A stretch of DNA of 64,000 nucleotides from Nitrospirota bacterium (GTDB taxonomy: Bacteria; Nitrospirota; Leptospirillia; Leptospirillales; Leptospirillaceae): the NCBI GenBank assembly GCA_027415345.1, contig DAIBTC010000001.1, positions 12,555-76,554 on the forward strand. The letters run 5' to 3'. This document shows, piece by piece, positions 2 through 42,853 of the stretch. The notes under the pieces were generated by a model, which was given only the letters and a program-made list of their open reading frames with translations, was not told the origin of the DNA and made no database searches. The stretch's first letter is position 1. Each line of letters begins with the position of its first letter. A program made the position numbers and the translations under genes.

Positions 2-790
2 AACTCCTATCGATACCGTCTCCCGCTTGCCTCCGATCCTGGCGGGGCCGCTCTATTCCTGTCCCTTGCCCGGGCGAACTGGAAGAACGGGGAGAAGGAA
101 AGGGCGGGGCGGGAGCTAGATTCTGTTCTTGCCCATGGTCAGGATCCGGTGCTTCTCGCAATAGCCAGGAAGGTCCGATACCGCTGGCTGATCCAGGACG
201 GCAAGAAATCTCGGGCCCTCGACTGGGCGATTACTTTTTCCGGCAATCGAACCATTCCCTCCCCCGAGCGGAGGGAATGGTTCGGCAAGGCTTTGGATCT
301 GGCCCGGCAGATGAAGAGACCTGAGATCGAAAGGGAGGTCCTGGCCAGCTGGGCCGTTTCCGGCGTGCCGATCGACCATCCCGGGGAGGTCCTGGCCCGG
401 CTGGGACTCCTTGAGATCGGATCGGGGAATCCGGATAAGGGACGTTCGGATCTTATGCGCGCCCTCCCTTTAATCGAAGGTCGAAAGGATGATCGTCCCC
501 TTCTGGCCCAGGTCCTTTTTCGGCTGGGGCAGGAGTCCCTTCTGAGGGGCGACAGGCCGTCCTCCAGGCGCTACTGGAAGGAGATGCTGGCGTGTTGTTC
601 CTCCGATCCCCACGGAGGGTGGGTCACCTACCAGATGGGGCAGATGGCCCTCTCCGAAGGTCATGCCGGGGAGGCTCTCGAATGGTTTGAGAAGACTGTC
701 AAAAAATATCCTGGGGAGGAGGTGGCCCGGGTGGCCAGGGAAAAAATTCGCGCCATGAGACTGGAGAATAAGAATGGAGAACCCAGATGA
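2..790 (+). CDS. TPR-repeat protein, 5' end outside window
   Basis: Frame is open from the window edge into the listed 149..790 ORF (no stop upstream). TPR-like helical repeats, e.g. GHAGEALEWFEKTVKKYPGEEVARVAREKI. Function unknown. Confidence 0.5.
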   Translation, partial: NSYRYRLPLASDPGGAALFLSLARANWKNGEKERAGRELDSVLAHGQDPVLLAIARKVRYRWLIQDGKKSRALDWAITFSGNRTIPSPERREWFGKALDLARQMKRPEIEREVLASWAVSGVPIDHPGEVLARLGLLEIGSGNPDKGRSDLMRALPLIEGRKDDRPLLAQVLFRLGQESLLRGDRPSSRRYWKEMLACCSSDPHGGWVTYQMGQMALSEGHAGEALEWFEKTVKKYPGEEVARVAREKIRAMRLENKNGEPR

Positions 791-2024
791 GATCGTCACA
801 TCCGCAACCGGTGGGGAGGCCAGGGAAGAGGTCCTGAGACAGGCCTTTCTCTCCTTTCAGTCCGCCTCGGAGTCCCTTGTCACCTCCTACGCCGCCCTGG
901 AAAAAAGGATTGCGGATCTCTCAGAGGCCCTTACCCGAAAGAATCTGGACTTCGACCGGCAGGGGAGTTTTCTGGAAGCCATCCTGAAGAGTCTTTCCGC
1001 CGGAGTTCTCGTTCTGACACCGGGAGGAGCGACCCTCTACCGGAATCCCGCCATGGACATTTTGCCCGTCCCGACAGAGGGGTCTTTGATCCCTATTCTC
1101 GAGCAAAAAGGCCTCTGGCCGCCTGGCGAAACGGAGAACGAGTCAGCCTTTGAAGACGGTGGACGTTCCTGGGCCGTGGTGCGCCGGCCTGTTTCCGGTC
1201 CCGATGGACGGCCGATCGGATATGTCTTCATCTTCACCGACGTGACACGAATCCGCGAGATGGAGGAGGAGGTGGCCCGGGACCGGAGACTCCGGGCCAT
1301 GGGAGAAATGATCGCCCAGATCGCCCACGAGCTCCGAAATCCCCTTGGAAGTCTGGAGCTTTTCAGCTCCCTTCTCTCCCGGGATTCTGCCACTCCGGAA
1401 TCACGGGAATACCTCGGCCATATGATCACCTCGATCGCCTCCATGGACCGTCTGATCGGCAATCTCCTCTACCATACCCGGACCCCGGAGCTCCAGGAAG
1501 GGAGGGTCGAGTCCGAAGTTTTCATCCATCGCCTCTCCGCCGACTTTGCCCGCATGGTTCGTTCCGCCGCCCGTTCCCGGGCTGCCAGAACCCTGACATT
1601 TCATTCCGATCCTGCCCCTGCGCCTGCCATGCTCCATGTCGACGAGGAACTTCTCTACCATGCCCTTTTCAATCTTGTCAGCAACGGGCTTGAAGCCCTC
1701 ATGGGGCTTTCTCCAGAGGAGGATGGCCTCCGGGAACTGCGTCTCGAGACAGGCCGGGGCCCGTCCGGAGAATACCTTTTTATCGTAAAAGACAATGGCA
1801 CAGGAATTGCTGAAGAGGTGTCGGGGCGGATTTTTGATCCCTTCTTCACGACGCGGGCCAAAGGGACGGGCCTTGGGCTTTCCATCGTTCACAATATTGC
1901 GGTGGCCCATGGAGGGGAGATTCGCTACTTTCGGGCCGGGGCCTGGACGACATTTTCCCTGTCCATCCCTCCGGGACGGGTCGAACCGGTCCTGGCAAAT
2001 GGAAATCAAGGAGGCGAAAGGTGA
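774..2024 (+). CDS. cytoplasmic PAS-type sensor histidine kinase (FlgS/FleS-like by context)
   Basis: H-box HELRNPLGSL; ATPase boxes KDNGTGI and GTGLGLSIVHNIAVAHGGEI; no obvious TM helices; GTGA overlap with the downstream sigma-54 response regulator. Confidence 0.85.
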   Translation: MENPDEIVTSATGGEAREEVLRQAFLSFQSASESLVTSYAALEKRIADLSEALTRKNLDFDRQGSFLEAILKSLSAGVLVLTPGGATLYRNPAMDILPVPTEGSLIPILEQKGLWPPGETENESAFEDGGRSWAVVRRPVSGPDGRPIGYVFIFTDVTRIREMEEEVARDRRLRAMGEMIAQIAHELRNPLGSLELFSSLLSRDSATPESREYLGHMITSIASMDRLIGNLLYHTRTPELQEGRVESEVFIHRLSADFARMVRSAARSRAARTLTFHSDPAPAPAMLHVDEELLYHALFNLVSNGLEALMGLSPEEDGLRELRLETGRGPSGEYLFIVKDNGTGIAEEVSGRIFDPFFTTRAKGTGLGLSIVHNIAVAHGGEIRYFRAGAWTTFSLSIPPGRVEPVLANGNQGGER

Positions 2025-3421
2025 GTCCTCAGGAAGCCGGAAGTGTTCTTGTCGTTGATGACGAGCCGGAAATGGCGATCGCCCTCAGGGAAACGCTGAG
2101 ACGGGACGGTTACAGGGTCAGTCTGGCCCAGAACGGGCAGGAGGCGATCGAAAAAATTTCCCGGGAAGACTATGGATGGGTGATCAGCGATGTCCGAATG
2201 CCCTCTGTTGACGGATGGGAACTCTTGTCGAGGCTTAAGGAGAAATCTCCCCTGACGCGTGTCATATTCATGACGGCCTATGGAACGGTTCCCCAGGCTG
2301 TCGAGGCAATGAAGCAGGGGGCAGTCAATTTTTTGACAAAACCCTTCAAGGCGGAGGATCTGAGAAAGATCCTCGATCCCTCTCCCCTTTGTCCTCCGGG
2401 AGATGGAAGCCTCTCCGGGACAGGAGGAAGAAGTCCCTGGGAAAATGTCTCCCGACCGATAAAAACCCGCAACCCTGCGATGATCAGGATTCTTGGAATG
2501 ATCGACGCTGTCGCCTCGACACCGGCGACAATCCTGATCGAGGGGGAGAGCGGAACGGGAAAGGAGCTTCTTGCCCGTTATCTTCACGAACGTTCGACGA
2601 GGGCCCACCGCCCATTCGTCGCAGTCAACTGTGCCGCTCTTCCGGACAACCTTCTCGAGTCTGAACTTTTTGGCTATGAAAAGGGGGCCTTTTCCGGGGC
2701 CATGGCCCGGAAAGCCGGAAAGTTCGAGCTGGCCCATACAGGGACCCTGTTGCTCGACGAGATCGGGGAGATGGAACTCGGCCTCCAGGCCAAGCTGCTT
2801 CGGGTCATCCAGGAGAGGGAAATCGATCGCGTGGGGGGAACCCGTCCCGTTCCCGTTGATATCCGGATCATTGCCACGACAAACCGGAACCTGAAAGAAG
2901 AGGTGAGGGCGGGCCGATTCAGGGAGGATCTCTACTACCGCCTGAGGGTCTTTCCTGTGACTCTCCTTCCCCTCCGGGAACGGATGGAGGATATTCCCCT
3001 TCTGGCGGAGCGATTCCGTCAGGCCTTTGAAAGGGAACATATGGCGGTGGGCCCCTTTGCTCCTGAAACACTGGATCTTCTTGGGCGCCATAACTGGCCC
3101 GGCAATGTCCGGGAGCTTGAGAACGTCGTGACCAGGGCCGCTTTTCTGGCAGAGGGGCGTACGATCCTTCCCGTCCATGTGGCAGACCTTCTGGATTCGG
3201 AAGTCGGGGGAGGTGAAGAGGGTTCGGAGGGTGGGGTCGGAATCCGCCCCGGACGTTCTGTCTGGGAGGTCGAGCGGGAACTGATCCTCCGGACACTTTC
3301 CTCCTGTGGAGGGAACAAGGCCCAATCGGCAAGGCTTCTGGGAATCAATGTGAGAACCCTCAGGAACAAGCTTGCCGAATACGGAATCTCAGGAGAGGGA
3401 GGGACGGAGGGGACGGAATAA
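2021..3421 (+). CDS. sigma-54-dependent response regulator, NtrC family (FlgR/FleR-like by context)
   Basis: REC domain (VLVVDDEP...SDVRMP); AAA+ Walker A GESGTGKE; GAFSGA loop (GAFTGA type); C-terminal Fis-type HTH NKAQSARLLGINVRTLRNKL. Confidence 0.9.
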   Translation: MSPQEAGSVLVVDDEPEMAIALRETLRRDGYRVSLAQNGQEAIEKISREDYGWVISDVRMPSVDGWELLSRLKEKSPLTRVIFMTAYGTVPQAVEAMKQGAVNFLTKPFKAEDLRKILDPSPLCPPGDGSLSGTGGRSPWENVSRPIKTRNPAMIRILGMIDAVASTPATILIEGESGTGKELLARYLHERSTRAHRPFVAVNCAALPDNLLESELFGYEKGAFSGAMARKAGKFELAHTGTLLLDEIGEMELGLQAKLLRVIQEREIDRVGGTRPVPVDIRIIATTNRNLKEEVRAGRFREDLYYRLRVFPVTLLPLRERMEDIPLLAERFRQAFEREHMAVGPFAPETLDLLGRHNWPGNVRELENVVTRAAFLAEGRTILPVHVADLLDSEVGGGEEGSEGGVGIRPGRSVWEVERELILRTLSSCGGNKAQSARLLGINVRTLRNKLAEYGISGEGGTEGTE

Positions 3422-3433
3422 CCGGGAAAATTC

Positions 3434-3450
3434 TTCCTGCCAGGCAGGAA
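3434..3450 (+). promoter_or_regulatory. 17-bp palindrome TTCCTG-N5-CAGGAA, candidate enhancer site upstream of the flgB sigma-54 promoter
   Basis: Perfect inverted repeat TTCCTGCCAGGCAGGAA, 64 nt upstream of the -24 TGG. Same hexamers as the sites at 33222 and 46404 but with half-sites swapped. Confidence 0.3.
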
Positions 3451-3514
3451 CCGATTCCCCTTGCAAGGAAAAAGTCTTTCATGAAAATCCATAAAAGATA
3501 ATATCTTGAGATAT

Positions 3515-3530
3515 TGGTATGTTTGTTGCA
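3515..3530 (+). promoter_or_regulatory. sigma-54 (-24/-12) promoter of the flgB operon
   Basis: TGGTATGTTTGTTGCA matches TGGCAC-N5-TTGCW with GG and GC at canonical spacing. Lies 27 nt upstream of flgB ATG 3557, after an AT-rich stretch. Confidence 0.7.
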
Positions 3531-3556
3531 CTTTTATTTGTCAATGGAGGGGAATC

Positions 3557-3931
3557 ATGAAGCAGGTTCATCTTTTCGACAGGACAACCGACCTTCTCAA
3601 GGTCACGATGGATCTTCGCTCAAGGAGACATTTGCTTCTTGTGAGCAATATCGCCAATCAGGATACTCCCGGGTACATGGCCCGCGACCTTTCCTTCAAG
3701 AAGGAGCTCTCGAAAGCTCTGGAATCTCCCACCCGAAGGGATCTGGATCGGACGGATGGGACGCTCACCGTCAACACCGACGAGACGGTCGGAAATGACC
3801 TCAATACCGTCAATATCGAGCTGGAAATGCAGAAGCTTGCTTCAAATACGGGAAACTACAATGCCCTGGCCTCCATGGCAGGATGGAAATACCGGATGAT
3901 GGGGGATGCCATCTCGGGTGAAGGGAGGTAG
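3557..3931 (+). CDS. flgB: flagellar proximal rod protein FlgB
   Basis: Rod N-terminal motif LLVSNIANQDTPGY; SD GGAGGGG upstream of ATG 3557 (listed ORF starts earlier at 3506); precedes flgC. Confidence 0.9.
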   Translation: MKQVHLFDRTTDLLKVTMDLRSRRHLLLVSNIANQDTPGYMARDLSFKKELSKALESPTRRDLDRTDGTLTVNTDETVGNDLNTVNIELEMQKLASNTGNYNALASMAGWKYRMMGDAISGEGR

Positions 3932-12917: not shown

Positions 12918-14294
12918 ATGGGTATTCTTTCGTCGATGTATGTGGCCAACAGCGGGCTCTCCGCCATGGGAACCGACATGTCGGTGATCGGAAACAACAT
13001 CAGCAACATGAATACAGTGGGATTCAAGTCAGGGCGAGCTGTTTTTGCCAATATCTACGGACAGACCCTGGCCGGAAAATCCAATGCGGTCGGTCCGTCC
13101 CAGCCGGGATCCGGAGTCTATGTGGAATCGATCGAGCCGCTCTTTACCCAGGGGTCGGTTCAGTCCACAAGCAACGCCCTCGACCTCGCGATCCAGGGGA
13201 ACGGGTTCTTTTCCTTCCGGGATGCCAACGGAGCAATCCTCTATGGCCGGAATGGGGCCCTCTCTCTCGACAGGAACGGCAGGATCGTAGACCAGGGAGG
13301 GCATATCCTCCAGGGGTATTCCGCCGACGCCGCCGGGAGAATCCAGCCCAAGGTCGGGGATCTGGGAGTTCCCCAGTCGACCATTCCTCCCAAGGCCTCA
13401 CAGAACGTCTATTCCCGGATCAACCTCGATGCCAACATGACGGAAAAGCTGAAGGCCGGAAAGACCTTCTCGAAGTCGAGCAACATTTTCGACTCCCTCG
13501 GAATCGAGCATCTTCTGACCTACAAGTTCCACCCCACCAATACCGTCGGACAGTGGGCGGTGGAAGCGACCCTCGACGGAGCGAAGCTGACCAAGGGAGG
13601 GGGAAGCGTCACCTATACCTCCTCTGCCGGAGGAAAGGCCACAACCATTAACGGGATGGTGGCCATGGTCAATTTTGACGGCAACGGCAACGTGGCCAAA
13701 GTCAACTACGGAGGATCCCCCACCAAGCTCGATGCCTCCGGGGTCCAGAGCGTGGACTACACCATGGCGCTCGACGACAAGGCCTCCACGCCGGTCACCC
13801 TGGCCCTCTTCATCCCCAAGCCCGGACAGAAGGTGCCGGAAAACACCAAGGACGGGATCACCCGCCAGGTTCTTGACCTGACCCAGTATGCCGAGCCTTC
13901 CACGACGATCGAGGAGACCCAGGACGGATACAAGGCGGGAGACCTGTCGAACATCGCCATTGACCGGGCGGGTCGGATTGTGGGCTCCTTTTCAAACGGG
14001 ACGGAGCACAACCTGGGAGCGATCGCCGTTTCGACCTTCAACAACCCCAACGGTCTTGTCAGCATCGGGGCCAATCTCTACCAGGAAAGCATCGGGTCCG
14101 GAATCGCCAATATCGGCCGTGCCAACCAGGGGGGCCGGGGCCAGGTTCTGGCGAATTCGCTTGAACAATCCAATGTTGATCTCGGCCGTCAAATGATTGA
14201 CATGATTTCGGCGGAAAGAGGGTACCAGGCCAACGCCTCGGTCATATCCGCCGATAATCAGCTTATGAACACTCTTTTGACGCGTATCGGATAA
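12918..14294 (+). CDS. flgE: flagellar hook protein FlgE
   Basis: N-terminus MGILSSMYVANSGLSAMG..IGNNISNMNTVGFK; C-terminus SNVDLGRQMIDMISAERGYQANASVISADNQLMNTLL. Confidence 0.95.
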   Translation: MGILSSMYVANSGLSAMGTDMSVIGNNISNMNTVGFKSGRAVFANIYGQTLAGKSNAVGPSQPGSGVYVESIEPLFTQGSVQSTSNALDLAIQGNGFFSFRDANGAILYGRNGALSLDRNGRIVDQGGHILQGYSADAAGRIQPKVGDLGVPQSTIPPKASQNVYSRINLDANMTEKLKAGKTFSKSSNIFDSLGIEHLLTYKFHPTNTVGQWAVEATLDGAKLTKGGGSVTYTSSAGGKATTINGMVAMVNFDGNGNVAKVNYGGSPTKLDASGVQSVDYTMALDDKASTPVTLALFIPKPGQKVPENTKDGITRQVLDLTQYAEPSTTIEETQDGYKAGDLSNIAIDRAGRIVGSFSNGTEHNLGAIAVSTFNNPNGLVSIGANLYQESIGSGIANIGRANQGGRGQVLANSLEQSNVDLGRQMIDMISAERGYQANASVISADNQLMNTLLTRIG

Positions 14295-14324: not shown

Positions 14325-14362
14325 AAGGGTCTTCCGGAGCCGGCTCCGGAAGACCCTTTTTC
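14325..14362 (+). terminator. rho-independent terminator after flgE
   Basis: Perfect 34-nt palindrome AAGGGTCTTCCGGAGCCGGCTCCGGAAGACCCTT followed by a T run. Confidence 0.8.
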
Positions 14363-14365
14363 AAT

Positions 14366-14381
14366 TGGTACAGCTTTTGCT
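14366..14381 (+). promoter_or_regulatory. sigma-54 (-24/-12) promoter of the fliL operon
   Basis: TGGTACAGCTTTTGCT with GG/GC at canonical spacing, directly after the flgE terminator. Confidence 0.65.
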
Positions 14382-32697: not shown

Positions 32698-33221
32698 ACC
32701 GGAATTTTTTTCCTTCTCTCATTTTTCCCTTACTCTGACCTTCCTCGACAATTTTCCCTTGGCGCTTGCGATCCCGGATGGTCTGCTCCCAGAGGGGGGA
32801 TTTTTTAGAATTGCAAAATCTCCCTTTCCCCTTCGGGATCGGCATTTTAAGGCTGTTATCCCTCGGTTCAGGACAATCTATGCCAGGGACCGGGTCCTGG
32901 CCGGACAAACGCATTGGTCTCTCCGGAGACAGCCCGGCTGGGGACCGGTCCGACAATGAATGCCATCTTCAAAGGGAGCCATCCCTTTCCCCTTGCCGAT
33001 GGCCCAGAAGGGTCTTTGACATTCGGGGCAGCCTCCCTGTGTGGTTTTTTCCTTTGAGGTCAGTAGGGGAGATTTGATTGTTCCTCCGATCTTCAAGGCC
33101 CAACCTTCCATTCCCGAATTTCTCCTATCACTTTCCGGAGCGTCATAATTGTGGCACTTCAGTTCCCTCCTCCAAAGCCGACTTTTCCTGGATCCCCCTG
33201 ATTATTAACCAGATGGAAAGA

Positions 33222-33238
33222 GAGGAATTTTTTTCCTG
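33222..33238 (+). promoter_or_regulatory. 17-bp palindrome GAGGAA-N5-TTCCTG, candidate enhancer site for the flgF sigma-54 promoter
   Basis: GAGGAATTTTTTTCCTG ends exactly 75 nt before the TGG of the flgF -24 element, the same geometry as the 46404 site. Confidence 0.4.
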
Positions 33239-33313
33239 TCCAGAGGTGAAGAAATTTCCAAAAATTCGGGACATATTCATGTATATTATTGCTGTATAAT
33301 GAAATTATAGAAA

Positions 33314-33329
33314 TGGCATGAGCCTTGCT
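33314..33329 (+). promoter_or_regulatory. sigma-54 (-24/-12) promoter of the flgF operon
   Basis: TGGCATGAGCCTTGCT, a near-consensus TGGCAY-N5-TTGCT, 28 nt upstream of flgF ATG 33357 and preceded by an AT-rich tract. Confidence 0.75.
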
Positions 33330-33356
33330 TGGTTCAGGGGGCAAGGAGGACCTTCG

Positions 33357-42151: not shown

Positions 42152-42391
42152 ATTCTTATCCTGACACGTAAGATCGGGGAGGGAATCCGGATCGGCCATT
42201 CGGTTCACGTCGTTGTTCTGGAGGTGAAGGGGGGGGCGGTCCGGATCGGGATCGAGGCTCCGGACGGCGTCCTCATTCACCGGGACGAGGTTCTGGCCCG
42301 GATCACGGAGGAGAACAGAAAAGCGACCGGGACCTCCCGGGACAGGGTGGAGGGAGAGACCGTGATTCCCCCCCAAACAGGAGGGAGTTCG
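42152..42391 (+). CDS. csrA: carbon storage regulator CsrA, apparent ATT start, no stop codon (reads into fliW)
   Basis: ILILTRKIGEGIRIGHSVHVVVLEVKGGAVRIGIEAPDGVLIHRDEVLARITEEN is a complete CsrA core. There is no ATG/GTG/TTG between the flgL stop and GTG 42224. SD GGGAG lies 7 nt before ATT 42152. The frame stays open into fliW. Confidence 0.7.
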
Positions 42392-42853
42392 ATGAAGACC
42401 TTCGACACCAGGCGATTCGGGAAGATTCCGGTCGAGGACGAGAGGGTCATTGTCTTCCCCGACGGTCTACTGGGATTCCCGTCCTCCCGAAGGTTTGTCC
42501 TCCTCGAAACGGCCGAAAACGGGTTCTTCTACTGGCTCCAGTCCATTGACGATCCCTCCCTCGCCTTTGTCGTCATCGATCCCGTGCTCCTGGTTCCCGA
42601 CTACAAAAGTCGTCTCGTGCTTCCGGAATGGGATCGGGATTTTTTTGAGCCTGAGGGGCCCTCCACTCTTCATGCCATGGCGATTGTCACCTTCCCCGAA
42701 GGGGACGACGCCAGAGCAACGGCAAACCTGCAGGGGCCGCTGCTCGTCCGGGAGAGCGATCGCCTGGGCCGTCAGGTCGTTCTCGCCGAATCGGATGCCT
42801 GGCTTCGAATGCCCGTCTTTCCTCCGGAGGACAGAAGCGGGGGAGCTTCCTAA
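42392..42853 (+). CDS. fliW: flagellar assembly factor FliW (CsrA antagonist)
   Basis: MKTFDTRRFGKIPVEDERVIVFPDGLLGFPSSRRFVLLE...FYWLQSIDDPSLAFVVIDP; own SD AGGAGGGAG before ATG 42392. Confidence 0.9.
   Translation: MKTFDTRRFGKIPVEDERVIVFPDGLLGFPSSRRFVLLETAENGFFYWLQSIDDPSLAFVVIDPVLLVPDYKSRLVLPEWDRDFFEPEGPSTLHAMAIVTFPEGDDARATANLQGPLLVRESDRLGRQVVLAESDAWLRMPVFPPEDRSGGAS

What the first reader, a model, noticed from the sequence alone, without database searches (positions are those of the whole stretch)
33222..33329. Recurrent CAGGAA-N5-TTCCTG palindrome exactly 75 nt upstream of sigma-54 promoters: candidate enhancer for the cluster's NtrC-type activator
GAGGAA-TTTTT-TTCCTG (33222-33238) lies 75 nt upstream of the flgF -24 TGG (33314). 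The perfect palindrome CAGGAA-TAATA-TTCCTG (46404-46420) lies the same 75 nt upstream of the -24 TGG at 46496. The intervening DNA is AT-rich in both cases, as expected for a bent or IHF-type spacer. A 6-N5-6 (17 bp) palindrome matches the usual footprint of Fis-type HTH dimers in NtrC-family activators, and the activator encoded at 2021-3421 retains such an HTH. With rough base frequencies of 0.3 G/C and 0.2 A/T, a perfect 12-base match is expected about 0.003 times in 64 kb. Two copies with identical promoter geometry are therefore unlikely to be chance. I know of no described binding site for this type of flagellar activator with this sequence.
Basis: partly seen in the sequence, partly recalled or inferred. 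Interest (0 to 1): 0.7.

Follow-up and report, generated by a model that had tools for sequence, protein, structure and literature searches.

The report
Flagellar sigma-54 enhancer box GGAA-N5-TTCC
A short palindrome (GGAA, five A/T bases, TTCC) sits at a fixed distance upstream of three sigma-54 flagellar promoters in this Leptospirillum-like genome; it is most likely the docking site of the cluster's own activator protein and is a one-base variant of the known FlbD-type flagellar enhancer, also found across many distant bacteria.

Summary
A third copy (3423-3439) lies the same 75 nt upstream of a third sigma-54 promoter, flgB at 3515.

The conserved core is 13 bp, GGAA-W5-TTCC. The window holds 3 exact cores against 0.03 expected.

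In 276 kb from 11 Leptospirillia loci, 11 of 12 exact cores lie 64-107 bp upstream of a -24/-12 element. These include all flgF and most flgB promoters examined, down to about 60% protein identity.

A metagenome scan for box plus sigma-54 promoter returned over 120 hits. Of the 104 with enough downstream sequence, 53 precede flagellar genes only 25-40% identical to the window's.

The closest known elements are GGCA-N5-TGCC boxes: the Caulobacter FlbD ftr element and the D. vulgaris DVU1063 motif. The box here differs by one base per half-site.

The REC-AAA+-HTH_8 activator at 2021-3421 is the most likely binder, but this is inferred, not shown. Relatives carry a second, REC-less activator, which appears to use a different FleQ/FlrA-type box, GTCA-N6-TGAC.

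Verdict: a genuine enhancer and a new sequence variant of a known kind, of moderate interest.

The parts
3423..3439 (.). flgB enhancer box CGGGAAaattcTTCCTG (core GGAAAATTCTTCC, 3425-3437). Its centre lies 85 bp before the GG of the -24 element.
   Evidence: PWM 21.3. Orthologous boxes occur in L081, L082, L083, L089 and L091.
3515..3530 (+). Sigma-54 promoter of the flgB operon, TGGTATgtttgTTGCA. The real flgB start is probably ATG 3557.
   Evidence: Orthologous promoters were found.
33222..33238 (.). flgF enhancer box GAGGAAtttttTTCCTG (core 33224-33236). Its centre lies 85 bp before the -24 GG.
   Evidence: PWM 23.2. GGAATTTTTTTCC is invariant in the window, L001 and L002. Boxes are also present in L084, L086 and L087, where the upstream genes are different.
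33247..33259 (.). Weaker second box TGAAGAAATTTCC, 23 bp downstream of the main flgF box. Relatives have GGAA-N5-TGCC at the same offset.
   Evidence: PWM 6.7 here and 11.5 in L001. GGAAGAAAATGCC in L084 and GGAAAAAAGTGCC in L087 lie at +22 to +23.
33314..33329 (+). Sigma-54 promoter of the flgF operon, TGGCATgagccTTGCT. The RBS AAGGAGG and ATG 33357 follow.
   Evidence: (FlgF, TIGR02490).
46404..46420 (.). Enhancer box CAGGAAtaataTTCCTG (core 46406-46418), 85 bp before the -24 GG of the glycosyltransferase operon.
   Evidence: PWM 23.7. L001 has CGGGAATAAAATTCCCT at the same distance. L002 has CCTGAAGAAATTTCCTG at -62.
46373..46389 (.). Distal second box AGGGAAagaaaATCCCG, 31 bp upstream of the main box. 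It is conserved in the window, L001 and L002.
   Evidence: PWM 12.5, 17.5 and 18.0. The two boxes are spaced 31-32 bp apart in all three genomes.
46496..46511 (+). Sigma-54 promoter TGGCATaaaaaATGCG. It precedes an unknown 220-aa gene (46535-47197), a glycosyltransferase-methyltransferase-like gene, two GT9 genes and a Maf-like glycosyltransferase gene.
   Evidence: (nearly invariant in 3 genomes).
32701..32713 (.). Orphan high-scoring box GGAATTTTTTTCC, just after the stop of the flhB-C-like gene and 608 bp upstream of the flgF promoter. No sigma-54 element lies nearby.
   Evidence: PWM 22.5. L002 has GGAGATTTTTTCC at the equivalent place. Its role is unexplained.
2021..3421 (+). Gene for the candidate binder, a response-regulator-type sigma-54 activator (REC + AAA+ with a GAFSGA loop + Fis-type HTH_8).
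   Evidence: The canonical receiver residues D13, D14, D57, T85 and K107 are invariant in alignment A3.
774..2024 (+). Cognate histidine kinase gene (HisKA + HATPase_c). It overlaps the activator gene by 4 nt.
   Evidence: The TPR-HK-RR-flgB gene order is conserved as far as Nitrospira.

Best explanation
GGAA-W5-TTCC is the upstream activating sequence (enhancer) of the sigma-54-dependent flagellar promoters of this Leptospirillum-type bacterium.

Proposed mechanism:
1. The kinase (774-2024) phosphorylates the response-regulator activator (2021-3421).
2. Activator dimers bind the palindrome through their C-terminal Fis-type helix-turn-helix. At flgF and the glycosylation operon a weaker second box lies 23 or 31 bp away.
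3. The protein assembles into an AAA+ ring about 110 bp upstream of the start site.
4. The AT-rich, probably bent, spacer lets the ring touch RNA polymerase-sigma-54 held at the -24/-12 element.
5. ATP hydrolysis opens the promoter.

This would switch on the flgB-flgE operon (flgBC, fliEFGHIJK, flgDE), the flgF operon (from flgFGAHIJ onwards) and a putative flagellin-glycosylation operon together.

What is shown: the boxes, the promoters, their geometry, their conservation, their specificity for sigma-54 flagellar promoters, and the domain make-up of the activator.

What is inferred: which protein binds, phosphorylation, looping and activation.

The element works like, and is a sequence variant of, the FlbD ftr / DVU1063 box GGCA-N5-TGCC.
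For: - Three of the four intergenic sigma-54 promoters in the window carry the box at an identical offset. The chance expectation is 0.03-0.14 sites per window.
- Conservation: all 15 flgB, flgF and glycosylation-operon promoters in 11 Leptospirillia loci have a box scoring 16.8 or more, 48-116 bp upstream of -24. This holds even where the upstream gene context is different, as in L086 and L087.
- Specificity: 11 of 12 exact cores in 276 kb lie upstream of sigma-54 elements and none lies in a coding region.
- Other phyla: GG[AC]A-N5-T[TG]CC occurs at 4.4 per kb in the -160 to -30 region of 44 sigma-54 promoters, against 0.18 per kb overall. Twenty of the 44 promoters have one.
- Metagenome scan: 53 of 104 hits with enough downstream sequence precede flgF, flgB, flagellin, flgI, flgD/E or flgK genes at 25-40% identity, on contigs of 32-69% GC.
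- L197 and L181 repeat the layout of FlrC-like gene, then box plus promoter, then flgBC.
- The activator has REC, Sigma54_activat and HTH_8 domains.
- Literature: the FlbD homologue DVU1063 binds GGCAxxxxTGCC by DAP-chip, and the FlbD ftr element is CCCGGCAxxxxxTGCCGGG (PMC3333781).
- Hybrid GGAA..TGCC boxes occur in Leptospirillia. A GGCAATTTTTGCC box upstream of flgB in Nitrospira bockiana bridges the two forms.
- The other flagellar activator type (FlrA/FleQ/DVU2894) is assigned GTCA-N6-TGAC (PMC4641369). That box precedes the TPR-kinase-regulator operon in L083, L091 and L090.
Against: - No binding or expression data exist for this organism.
- A second, REC-less sigma-54 activator is encoded 4.5 kb upstream of the kinase in every relative examined. 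It presumably exists in this genome too, so the binder is assigned by analogy and exclusion.
- The GTCA box was found in only 3 of 6 relatives.
- The recognition helix of the 2021-3421 family (V/I-RTLRNKL) does not differ visibly between GGAA-type and GGCA-type organisms, so no protein-DNA co-variation was demonstrated.
- The box-to-promoter distance is not constant across relatives. One case, L089 at 48 bp, is out of helical phase.
- The fliL sigma-54 promoter has no box.
- An orphan box at 32701 has no promoter nearby.
- About half of the metagenome hits precede non-flagellar or unrecognised genes.
Confidence: 0.72

Rival explanations
1. The box is a real enhancer, but it is bound by the second flagellar activator. 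This is the REC-less Sigma54_activat + HTH_8 protein of 340-375 aa encoded upstream of the TPR-kinase-regulator operon in all relatives. It would act as a FleQ/FlrA-like master regulator on all structural operons.
For: This activator is conserved next to the cluster in L081, L082, L083, L089 and L091, and as a REC-containing form in Nitrospira L090. Its HTH is as well conserved as that of the 2021-3421 protein. The flgB operon here includes fliEFGHI, which are FlrA/FleQ-dependent genes in Vibrio and Pseudomonas (general knowledge).
Against: - Its HTH (LGINRTTLIEKLKRFG) is of the same kind as that of the only other activator of this HTH type recovered in the loci (L003, LNMNRTTLVEKIKKQG).
- The FlrA/FleQ-like DVU2894 is assigned yGTCA-N6-TGACr, and V. 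cholerae FlrA a GTCA-N6-TGGC site (PMC4641369).
- Exactly that palindrome, not a GGAA box, precedes the sigma-54 promoter of the TPR-kinase-regulator operon in L083, L091 and L090.
- GGCA/GGAA-N5 boxes are the experimentally mapped motif of the other family, FlbD/DVU1063.
- In L197 and L181 the box follows a REC-containing FlrC-like gene.
Confidence: 0.13
2. The palindrome is the operator of some other DNA-binding protein that is not a sigma-54 activator. Examples are a repressor, an anti-activator target or an architectural protein that modulates flagellar promoters. The real activator would act from solution or from another site.
For: Some flagellar sigma-54 activators, such as H. pylori and C. 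jejuni FlgR, need no enhancer (PMC3930126). FlbD also uses ftr sites to repress. The orphan box at 32701 has no promoter nearby.
Against: The position, about 110 bp upstream of the start site, is typical of an enhancer. So are the dyad symmetry matching an HTH dimer, the second boxes 2-3 helical turns away, and the near-exclusive link with -24/-12 elements across phyla. The activator retains a conserved HTH_8 domain. No other candidate regulator is encoded in the cluster.
Confidence: 0.1
3. The matches are chance, or reflect an RNA hairpin or terminator, or a recently duplicated sequence, rather than a protein-binding site.
For: Two of the boxes directly follow stop codons (3421 and 32697). 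The flgF and 46.4-kb copies share 12 further bases (TTCCTGTCCAGA).
Against: - Shuffles give 0.03-0.14 expected sites.
- The predicted hairpins are no more stable than shuffled sequence (z from -0.4 to -1.5) and lack T-runs.
- The extra shared bases are not conserved in L001 or L002, while the 13-bp core is.
- The core recurs in front of flagellar genes in unrelated genomes.
Confidence: 0.02

Closest known systems
ftr (flagellar transcription regulation) elements bound by FlbD in Caulobacter crescentus
   Same: Both are inverted repeats with 4-bp arms and a 5-bp spacer (GGnA-N5-TnCC). Both lie near sigma-54 flagellar promoters (rod, hook, flagellin classes) and are recognised by an NtrC-family activator with a C-terminal HTH. 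Some promoters have multiple sites (PMC3333781 quoting Wu et al. 1995; PMC3930126). The window activator scores 394 bits on the NCBIfam FlbD model over its AAA+ and HTH regions.
   Different: The third base of each half-site is A/T here, giving GGAA..TTCC instead of GGCA..TGCC. The GC-rich flanks CCC/GGG are absent and the spacer is strictly A/T. The activator here has a canonical receiver and an adjacent kinase, whereas FlbD has an atypical receiver and is controlled by FliX. The FlbD model score is below its 750-bit cut-off.
DVU1063 flagella regulator motif of Desulfovibrio vulgaris (DAP-chip; Rajeev et al. 2011, Kazakov et al. 2015)
   Same: It is the experimentally mapped motif, GGCAxxxxTGCC, of a sigma-54 response-regulator activator that controls about 12 flagellar operons. 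It is conserved across Desulfovibrionales. It coexists with a second, FlrA/FleQ-like activator that uses GTCA-N6-TGAC, the same two-activator layout seen in the relatives here.
   Different: The half-site base differs (C against A). Several DVU1063 sites lie 40-70 bp downstream of the promoter, whereas all sites here are upstream. DVU1063 has an atypical receiver.
FlrC (Vibrio), FleR (Pseudomonas) and FlgR (Campylobacter, Helicobacter) two-component control of rod and hook genes in polar flagellates
   Same: The logic is the same: a kinase plus a REC-AAA+-HTH regulator encoded in the flagellar cluster activates sigma-54 promoters of flgB- and flgF-type operons. FlhF and FlhG are also present (where JGI names several homologues FlrC, 54; PMC7064773).
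   Different: No GGAA-N5-TTCC site is described for these proteins in the papers I could search. FlgR works without an enhancer. From my own recollection, FlrC sites at flaA and flgK lie downstream of the promoter; the paper was not available.
NtrC enhancer at glnAp2 (E. coli and Salmonella)
   Same: The mechanism and geometry are generic: dyad sites for HTH dimers about 100-140 bp upstream, paired sites about three helical turns apart as at the 46.4-kb promoter, and activation by looping (general knowledge).
   Different: The sequence is unrelated (TGCACC-N5-GGTGCA) and the regulon is different.

Membership tests
Sigma-54 (-24/-12) promoter | GG and GC elements exactly 10 nt apart, matching TGGCAC-N5-TTGCW | tested here: met
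   Sites 3515, 33314 and 14366 match TGGYRY-N5-WTGCW exactly, with 4 hits against 0.24 expected. Site 46496 has TGGCAT-N5-ATGCG.
Sigma-54 (-24/-12) promoter | Placed just upstream of an RBS and start codon, and conserved in orthologous regions | tested here: met
   Start codons lie 27-28 nt after the promoter end at flgF and flgB, and 24 nt after it at the 46.5-kb operon. The element is conserved in L001, L002, L081-L091.
Sigma-54 (-24/-12) promoter | rpoN present and transcription dependent on it | not testable with these tools
   rpoN was not seen in the 64-kb window. No expression data are available.
Bacterial enhancer (UAS) of a sigma-54 activator | Dyad-symmetric site about 80-150 bp upstream of the start site, shared by several sigma-54 promoters of one regulon | tested here: met
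   Three promoters carry it at an identical offset. All 15 orthologous promoters have it. Eleven of 12 exact cores are promoter-associated.
Bacterial enhancer (UAS) of a sigma-54 activator | A cognate activator with a DNA-binding domain is encoded nearby | tested here: met
   The 2021-3421 protein has REC, Sigma54_activat and HTH_8 domains. It is the only such gene in the window.
Bacterial enhancer (UAS) of a sigma-54 activator | The activator binds the site and the site is needed for activation | not testable with these tools
   This needs EMSA, footprinting, DAP-seq and reporter mutagenesis.
FlbD ftr / DVU1063-type flagellar box | Consensus GGCA-N5-TGCC | tested here: not met
   The main boxes are GGAA-W5-TTCC. 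Only secondary or hybrid sites have a TGCC half. The arm length and spacing are the same.
FlbD ftr / DVU1063-type flagellar box | Located at sigma-54 promoters of flagellar genes | tested here: met
FlbD ftr / DVU1063-type flagellar box | The binder is an FlbD orthologue with an atypical, phosphorylation-independent receiver | tested here: not met
   The NCBIfam FlbD model scores 394 bits against a cut-off of 750. The receiver keeps D13, D14, D57, T85 and K107, and has a cognate kinase.
FleQ / FlrA / DVU2894 box | Inverted repeat GTCA-N6-TGAC | tested here: not met
   None of the three sites matches. That palindrome occurs instead before the TPR-kinase-regulator operon of L083, L091 and L090. 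A 1-mismatch copy lies at 46359-46372.
Intrinsic terminator / structured RNA | A stable GC-rich hairpin followed by a T-run | tested here: not met
   z-scores range from -0.4 to -1.5 and there are no T-runs.
IHF-assisted sigma-54 promoter | WATCAANNNNTTR between the enhancer and the promoter | tested here: inconclusive
   No match was found in the window's three spacers, and only loose matches in two relatives. The spacers are 58-71% AT, so intrinsic bending or a divergent IHF/HU site remains possible.

The most novel reading that the evidence does not exclude
GG(A/C)A-N5-T(T/G)CC may be an ancient, cross-phylum flagellar enhancer code read by one orthologous group of sigma-54 activators (FlbD, DVU1063 and FlrC-like two-component regulators). 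The GGAA/TTCC form would be a widespread but undescribed specificity variant, present in Nitrospirota, Thermodesulfobacteriota and many uncultured lineages. It would sit at helically phased positions of about 62, 72, 83 and 92 bp from -24. If so, the late flagellar regulon could be predicted from sequence alone in uncultured bacteria, and FlbD-type and FlrC-type systems would be linked by a shared DNA-recognition module despite different signalling inputs.
Probability: 0.45. Interest if true: 0.55.

Novelty: new variant of a known kind. Interest (0 to 1): 0.45.

Why it matters
The finding gives a concrete, testable cis-element for flagellar gene control in Leptospirillum-type acidophiles and their Nitrospirota relatives. 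I found no published work on flagellar transcriptional regulation in this group.

It places a putative flagellin-glycosylation operon in the same regulon as the rod and ring genes.

The comparative data also suggest that the FlbD/DVU1063 box family extends well beyond Alpha- and Deltaproteobacteria, with a one-base half-site variant that is common in metagenomes. That would be useful for predicting regulons in uncultured bacteria and for studying how activator-DNA specificity drifts.

It is not a new kind of mechanism.

Tried and rejected
- **RNA hairpin or terminator.** Folding energies do not differ from shuffles, and the terminator scan found nothing at the boxes.
The outer CA/TG and the shared TCCAGA extension are not conserved in relatives.
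- **Strict 75-nt spacing as a family rule.** It holds only in the window, L001 and L002. Distances elsewhere are 48-107 bp.
- **Helical-phasing test.** Distances in the metagenome set cluster at 62, 70-72, 81-85 and 91-92 bp. However, the Rayleigh test is significant for every period from 9.5 to 12 bp and the sequences are not independent, so this is only suggestive.
- **Protein-DNA co-variation.** Recognition helices of GGAA-type and GGCA-type organisms show no consistent difference.
- **GTCA-N6-TGAC as a universal mark of the kinase-regulator operon.** It was found in only 3 of 6 relatives.
- **Nitrospira bockiana flgB.** It has a GGCAATTTTTGCC box but no recognisable separate sigma-54 promoter.
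- **Second boxes as a general rule.** Only 7 of 52 metagenomic flagellar promoters have one.
- **Match at 1796.** The perfect sigma-54 match here is coding sequence for the kinase G1 box, not a promoter.
- **Primary papers.** Those on FlrC enhancers (PMC1082837) and FlbD ftr (PMC177017) are not held. The ftr consensus is therefore cited second-hand from PMC3333781.
- **Control metagenome scan.** The share of flagellar genes downstream of hits serves as the internal control instead.
Full report
**Observation**

GAGGAAtttttTTCCTG lies at 33222-33238 and CAGGAAtaataTTCCTG at 46404-46420. Each ends 75 nt before the TGG of a -24/-12 element: TGGCATgagccTTGCT at 33314 and TGGCATaaaaaATGCG at 46496.

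A one-mismatch search turned up a third copy, CGGGAAaattcTTCCTG at 3423-3439. It ends exactly 75 nt before TGGTATgtttgTTGCA at 3515. This is a sigma-54 promoter that follows the activator gene and precedes flgB.

Three of the four intergenic sigma-54 promoters of the window therefore carry the palindrome at an identical offset. The fourth, before fliL at 14366, has none.

The counts exceed chance. Dinucleotide-preserving shuffles give 0.14 expected matches for SRGGAA-N5-TTCCTG and 0.03 for GGAAWWWWWTTCC, against 3 observed. A position-weight scan of the window is bimodal: four intergenic sites score above 21 and everything else scores 15.4 or less, mostly in coding sequence.

**Context**

The window is a flagellar and chemotaxis supercluster. 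Its gene order is:
- a TPR protein (C-terminal part), a histidine kinase (774-2024) and a REC-AAA+-HTH_8 sigma-54 activator (2021-3421);
- flgBC-fliEFGHIJK-flgDE, followed by a terminator;
- fliL and the downstream export-apparatus genes fliPQR-flhBA, then flhF, flhG, fliA, che and mot genes;
- flgFGAHIJ, flagellin, flgMNKL, flagellin, fliDS;
- an operon with an unknown 220-aa protein, a glycosyltransferase-methyltransferase-like protein, two GT9 glycosyltransferases and a Maf-like glycosyltransferase.

The nearest relatives are Leptospirillum-type Nitrospirota. Homologues of the activator run from 99% down to 58% identity in 'Nitrospirae', 'Leptospirales' and 'Leptospirillum sp.' assemblies, and about 53% in Nitrospira.

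**Conservation**

I collected orthologous promoters from the genome collection and by exact-protein look-ups:
- L001 and L002, syntenic across 26-47 kb of the window;
- L081, L082, L083, L089 and L091 for flgB;
- L084, L086 and L087 for flgF.

In the flgF alignment the only conserved islands upstream of the ribosome-binding site are GGAATTTTTTTCC and the -24/-12 element. L086 and L087 have entirely different upstream genes (arginine and lysine biosynthesis), yet GGAAAAAAATTCC and GGAAAATATTTCC still precede the flgF sigma-54 promoter.

flgB promoters carry GGAAAAAATTTCC (L081, L082), GGAAATTTTTTCC (L083), GGAAGAAATTTCC (L089) and GGAAAAATTTGCC (L091).

Aligning 12 sites shows the conserved unit is 13 bp, GGAA-W5-TTCC, with T avoided just outside it.

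Across 276 kb of Leptospirillia sequence there are 12 exact cores. Eleven lie 64-107 bp upstream of a -24 element and none lies in a gene.

Weaker second boxes recur at fixed offsets. One lies +22 to +24 bp from the main box at flgF, usually as GGAA-N5-TGCC. Another lies 31-32 bp upstream at the glycosylation operon. In L002 the whole pair sits 22-23 bp closer to the promoter.

**Alternatives for the sequence itself**

The predicted hairpins are no more stable than shuffled controls and lack T-runs, so a terminator or RNA element is not supported.

The spacers are AT-rich: 58-71% in the window against 41% overall, and 70-90% in the 40 bp before -24 at flgB and flgF in the window and its closer relatives. 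They contain no E. coli-type IHF consensus.

**Spread beyond this lineage**

I scanned the metagenome collection for GGAAW5TTCCB, then 53-83 nt, then TGGYAY-N5-TTGCW.

Translated comparison of the DNA downstream of each hit with the window's proteins found flagellar genes in 53 of the 104 hits that have at least 400 nt downstream. By best match these were FlgF (20), FlgB (7), flagellin (9), FlgI (3), FlgG (3) and FlgM (1), plus 10 hits whose first flagellar gene (FlgD/E, FlgK, FlgG or FliF) starts further downstream, typically at 25-40% identity. Chance matches cannot produce that outcome.

The remaining hits precede heterogeneous or unrecognised genes, including PEP-CTERM, pilin-like, TPR and GGDEF proteins.

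Two contigs, L197 and L181, reproduce the window's layout: a FlrC-like gene (46-48% identity), then box plus sigma-54 promoter, then flgBC.

I also examined 78 taxonomically labelled flagellar loci from other phyla (Desulfobacterota, Thermodesulfobacteriota, Alphaproteobacteria and others). There the generalised box GG[AC]A-N5-T[TG]CC is 24-fold enriched in the -160 to -30 region of sigma-54 promoters (4.4 against 0.18 per kb). Twenty of 44 promoters have one. GGCA..TGCC, GGAA..TTCC and mixed forms all occur.

**What is known**

Rajeev et al. 2011 (PMC3333781) mapped the targets of the D. vulgaris sigma-54 response regulator DVU1063 by DAP-chip. They named it a flagella regulator homologous to FlbD, with the motif GGCAxxxxTGCC. 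They noted its resemblance to the Caulobacter FlbD site CCCGGCAxxxxxTGCCGGG.

Kazakov et al. 2015 (PMC4641369) assigned a second flagellar activator, the FlrA/FleQ-like DVU2894, the motif yGTCA-N6-TGACr. They related it to the V. cholerae FlrA site.

The box here has the same arms and spacing as the FlbD/DVU1063 box, with A instead of C at the third position of each half-site. I found no paper describing GGAA-N5-TTCC for a flagellar activator, nor any on Leptospirillum flagellar regulation.

**Which protein binds**

This step is inferred. The 2021-3421 protein has a canonical receiver (D13, D14, D57, T85, K107), a GAFSGA AAA+ domain and a Fis-type HTH. Its helix, V/I-RTLRNKL, is conserved as far as Nitrospira.

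All relatives also encode a second sigma-54 activator, REC-less and 340-375 aa long, upstream of the TPR-kinase-regulator operon and just outside the window. Its HTH (NRTTLIEKL) belongs to a different type from the V/I-RTLRNKL helix of the 2021-3421 family. The other such protein in my loci, in L003, has the same type.

In L083, L091 and Nitrospira L090, the sigma-54 promoter of the TPR-kinase-regulator operon is preceded by GTCA-N6-TGAC, the FlrA/FleQ/DVU2894-type box, and not by a GGAA box.

The simplest model is a two-tier cascade as in Vibrio, Pseudomonas and Desulfovibrio. The REC-less activator would turn on the kinase-regulator operon through GTCA boxes. The phosphorylated regulator would then turn on the flgB, flgF and glycosylation operons through GGAA boxes.

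Two weaknesses remain. The GTCA box was seen in only 3 of 6 relatives. I also found no co-variation between the HTH and the box type.

**Verdict**

The element is a new sequence variant of a known kind of enhancer. Its apparent breadth across uncultured lineages is the most interesting aspect and the one most worth testing.

Noticed in passing
window 32701-32713: An orphan copy of the box, GGAATTTTTTTCC, identical to the flgF core. It lies 4 nt after the stop of the flhB-C-like gene and 608 bp upstream of the flgF promoter, with no sigma-54 element within 150 bp. L002 has GGAGATTTTTTCC at the equivalent place. It could be a distal auxiliary enhancer or a relic.
   Followed up: partly
L081 5529-6605, L082 4131-5258, L083 5258-6277, L089 5344-6423, L091 5380-6408, L090 4923-6341: A second flagellar sigma-54 activator is encoded upstream of the TPR-kinase-regulator operon in all relatives, just outside the window. 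It is REC-less in Leptospirillia and has a REC domain in Nitrospira. In L083 (6318), L091 (6439) and L090 (6463) that operon's own sigma-54 promoter is preceded by GTCA-N6-TGAC, the FleQ/FlrA/DVU2894-type box.
   Followed up: partly
window 46359-46372: GACAATTTTCTGAC, which is GTCA-N6-TGAC with one mismatch, abuts the distal GGAA-type box of the glycosylation-operon promoter. It is conserved in the window, L001 and L002. Both activators may therefore control this operon. Similar exact GTCA boxes lie upstream of the flgF boxes in L086 (9799) and L087 (9797).
   Followed up: partly
window 1796-1811: A perfect sigma-54 consensus match, TGGCACAGGAATTGCT, lies inside the kinase gene. It encodes DNGTGIA, the G1 box of the ATPase domain, and is conserved in L081 and L082 as coding sequence. 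It is probably not a promoter.
   Followed up: partly
window 14325-14381 and 14188-14201: The flgB-flgE operon ends in a strong hairpin plus T-run at 14325-14358. The fliL sigma-54 promoter at 14366 follows immediately and has no GGAA box. A GTCAAATGATTGAC palindrome lies 172 bp upstream, inside the flgE 3' end.
   Followed up: no
window 42224-42850: A single ORF joins a truncated CsrA (Pfam profile positions 26-53 only) to a complete FliW. L084 has the same fused gene of 213 aa, while L086 and L087 have separate csrA and fliW genes. This may be a fusion of the regulator and its antagonist, or a frameshifted csrA.
   Followed up: no
window 32698-33356; L001 6182-6838; L084 9056-9691: A 211-aa gene of unknown function lies between the flhB-like gene and flgF in L001 and L084. 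It is absent from the window and from L002, leaving a 659-bp non-coding gap.
   Followed up: partly
window 46535-54955: The third box-bearing sigma-54 promoter drives an unknown 220-aa protein with no Pfam or NCBIfam hit. After it come a glycosyltransferase-methyltransferase-like protein, two GT9 glycosyltransferases and a Maf-like flagellin glycosyltransferase. This suggests that flagellin glycosylation is co-regulated with the rod and ring genes.
   Followed up: partly
window 3506-3931: The mechanical ORF start of flgB (TTG 3506) overlaps the sigma-54 promoter. The real start is probably ATG 3557, which gives 124 aa as in L081.
   Followed up: yes
L093, L094, L195, L150 and others (metagenome hits): The same box plus sigma-54 promoter architecture also precedes non-flagellar genes in metagenomes. 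These include PEP-CTERM proteins, a pilin-like protein, TPR proteins and a GGDEF protein. Their box-to-promoter distances cluster like those of the flagellar hits, so some may be real targets of related activators.
   Followed up: partly
L090 11463-11475 (Ca. Nitrospira bockiana): A perfect FlbD/DVU1063-type box, GGCAATTTTTGCC, lies about 40 bp before the flgB start. There is no recognisable separate sigma-54 promoter, so its role there (activation or repression) is unclear.
   Followed up: no
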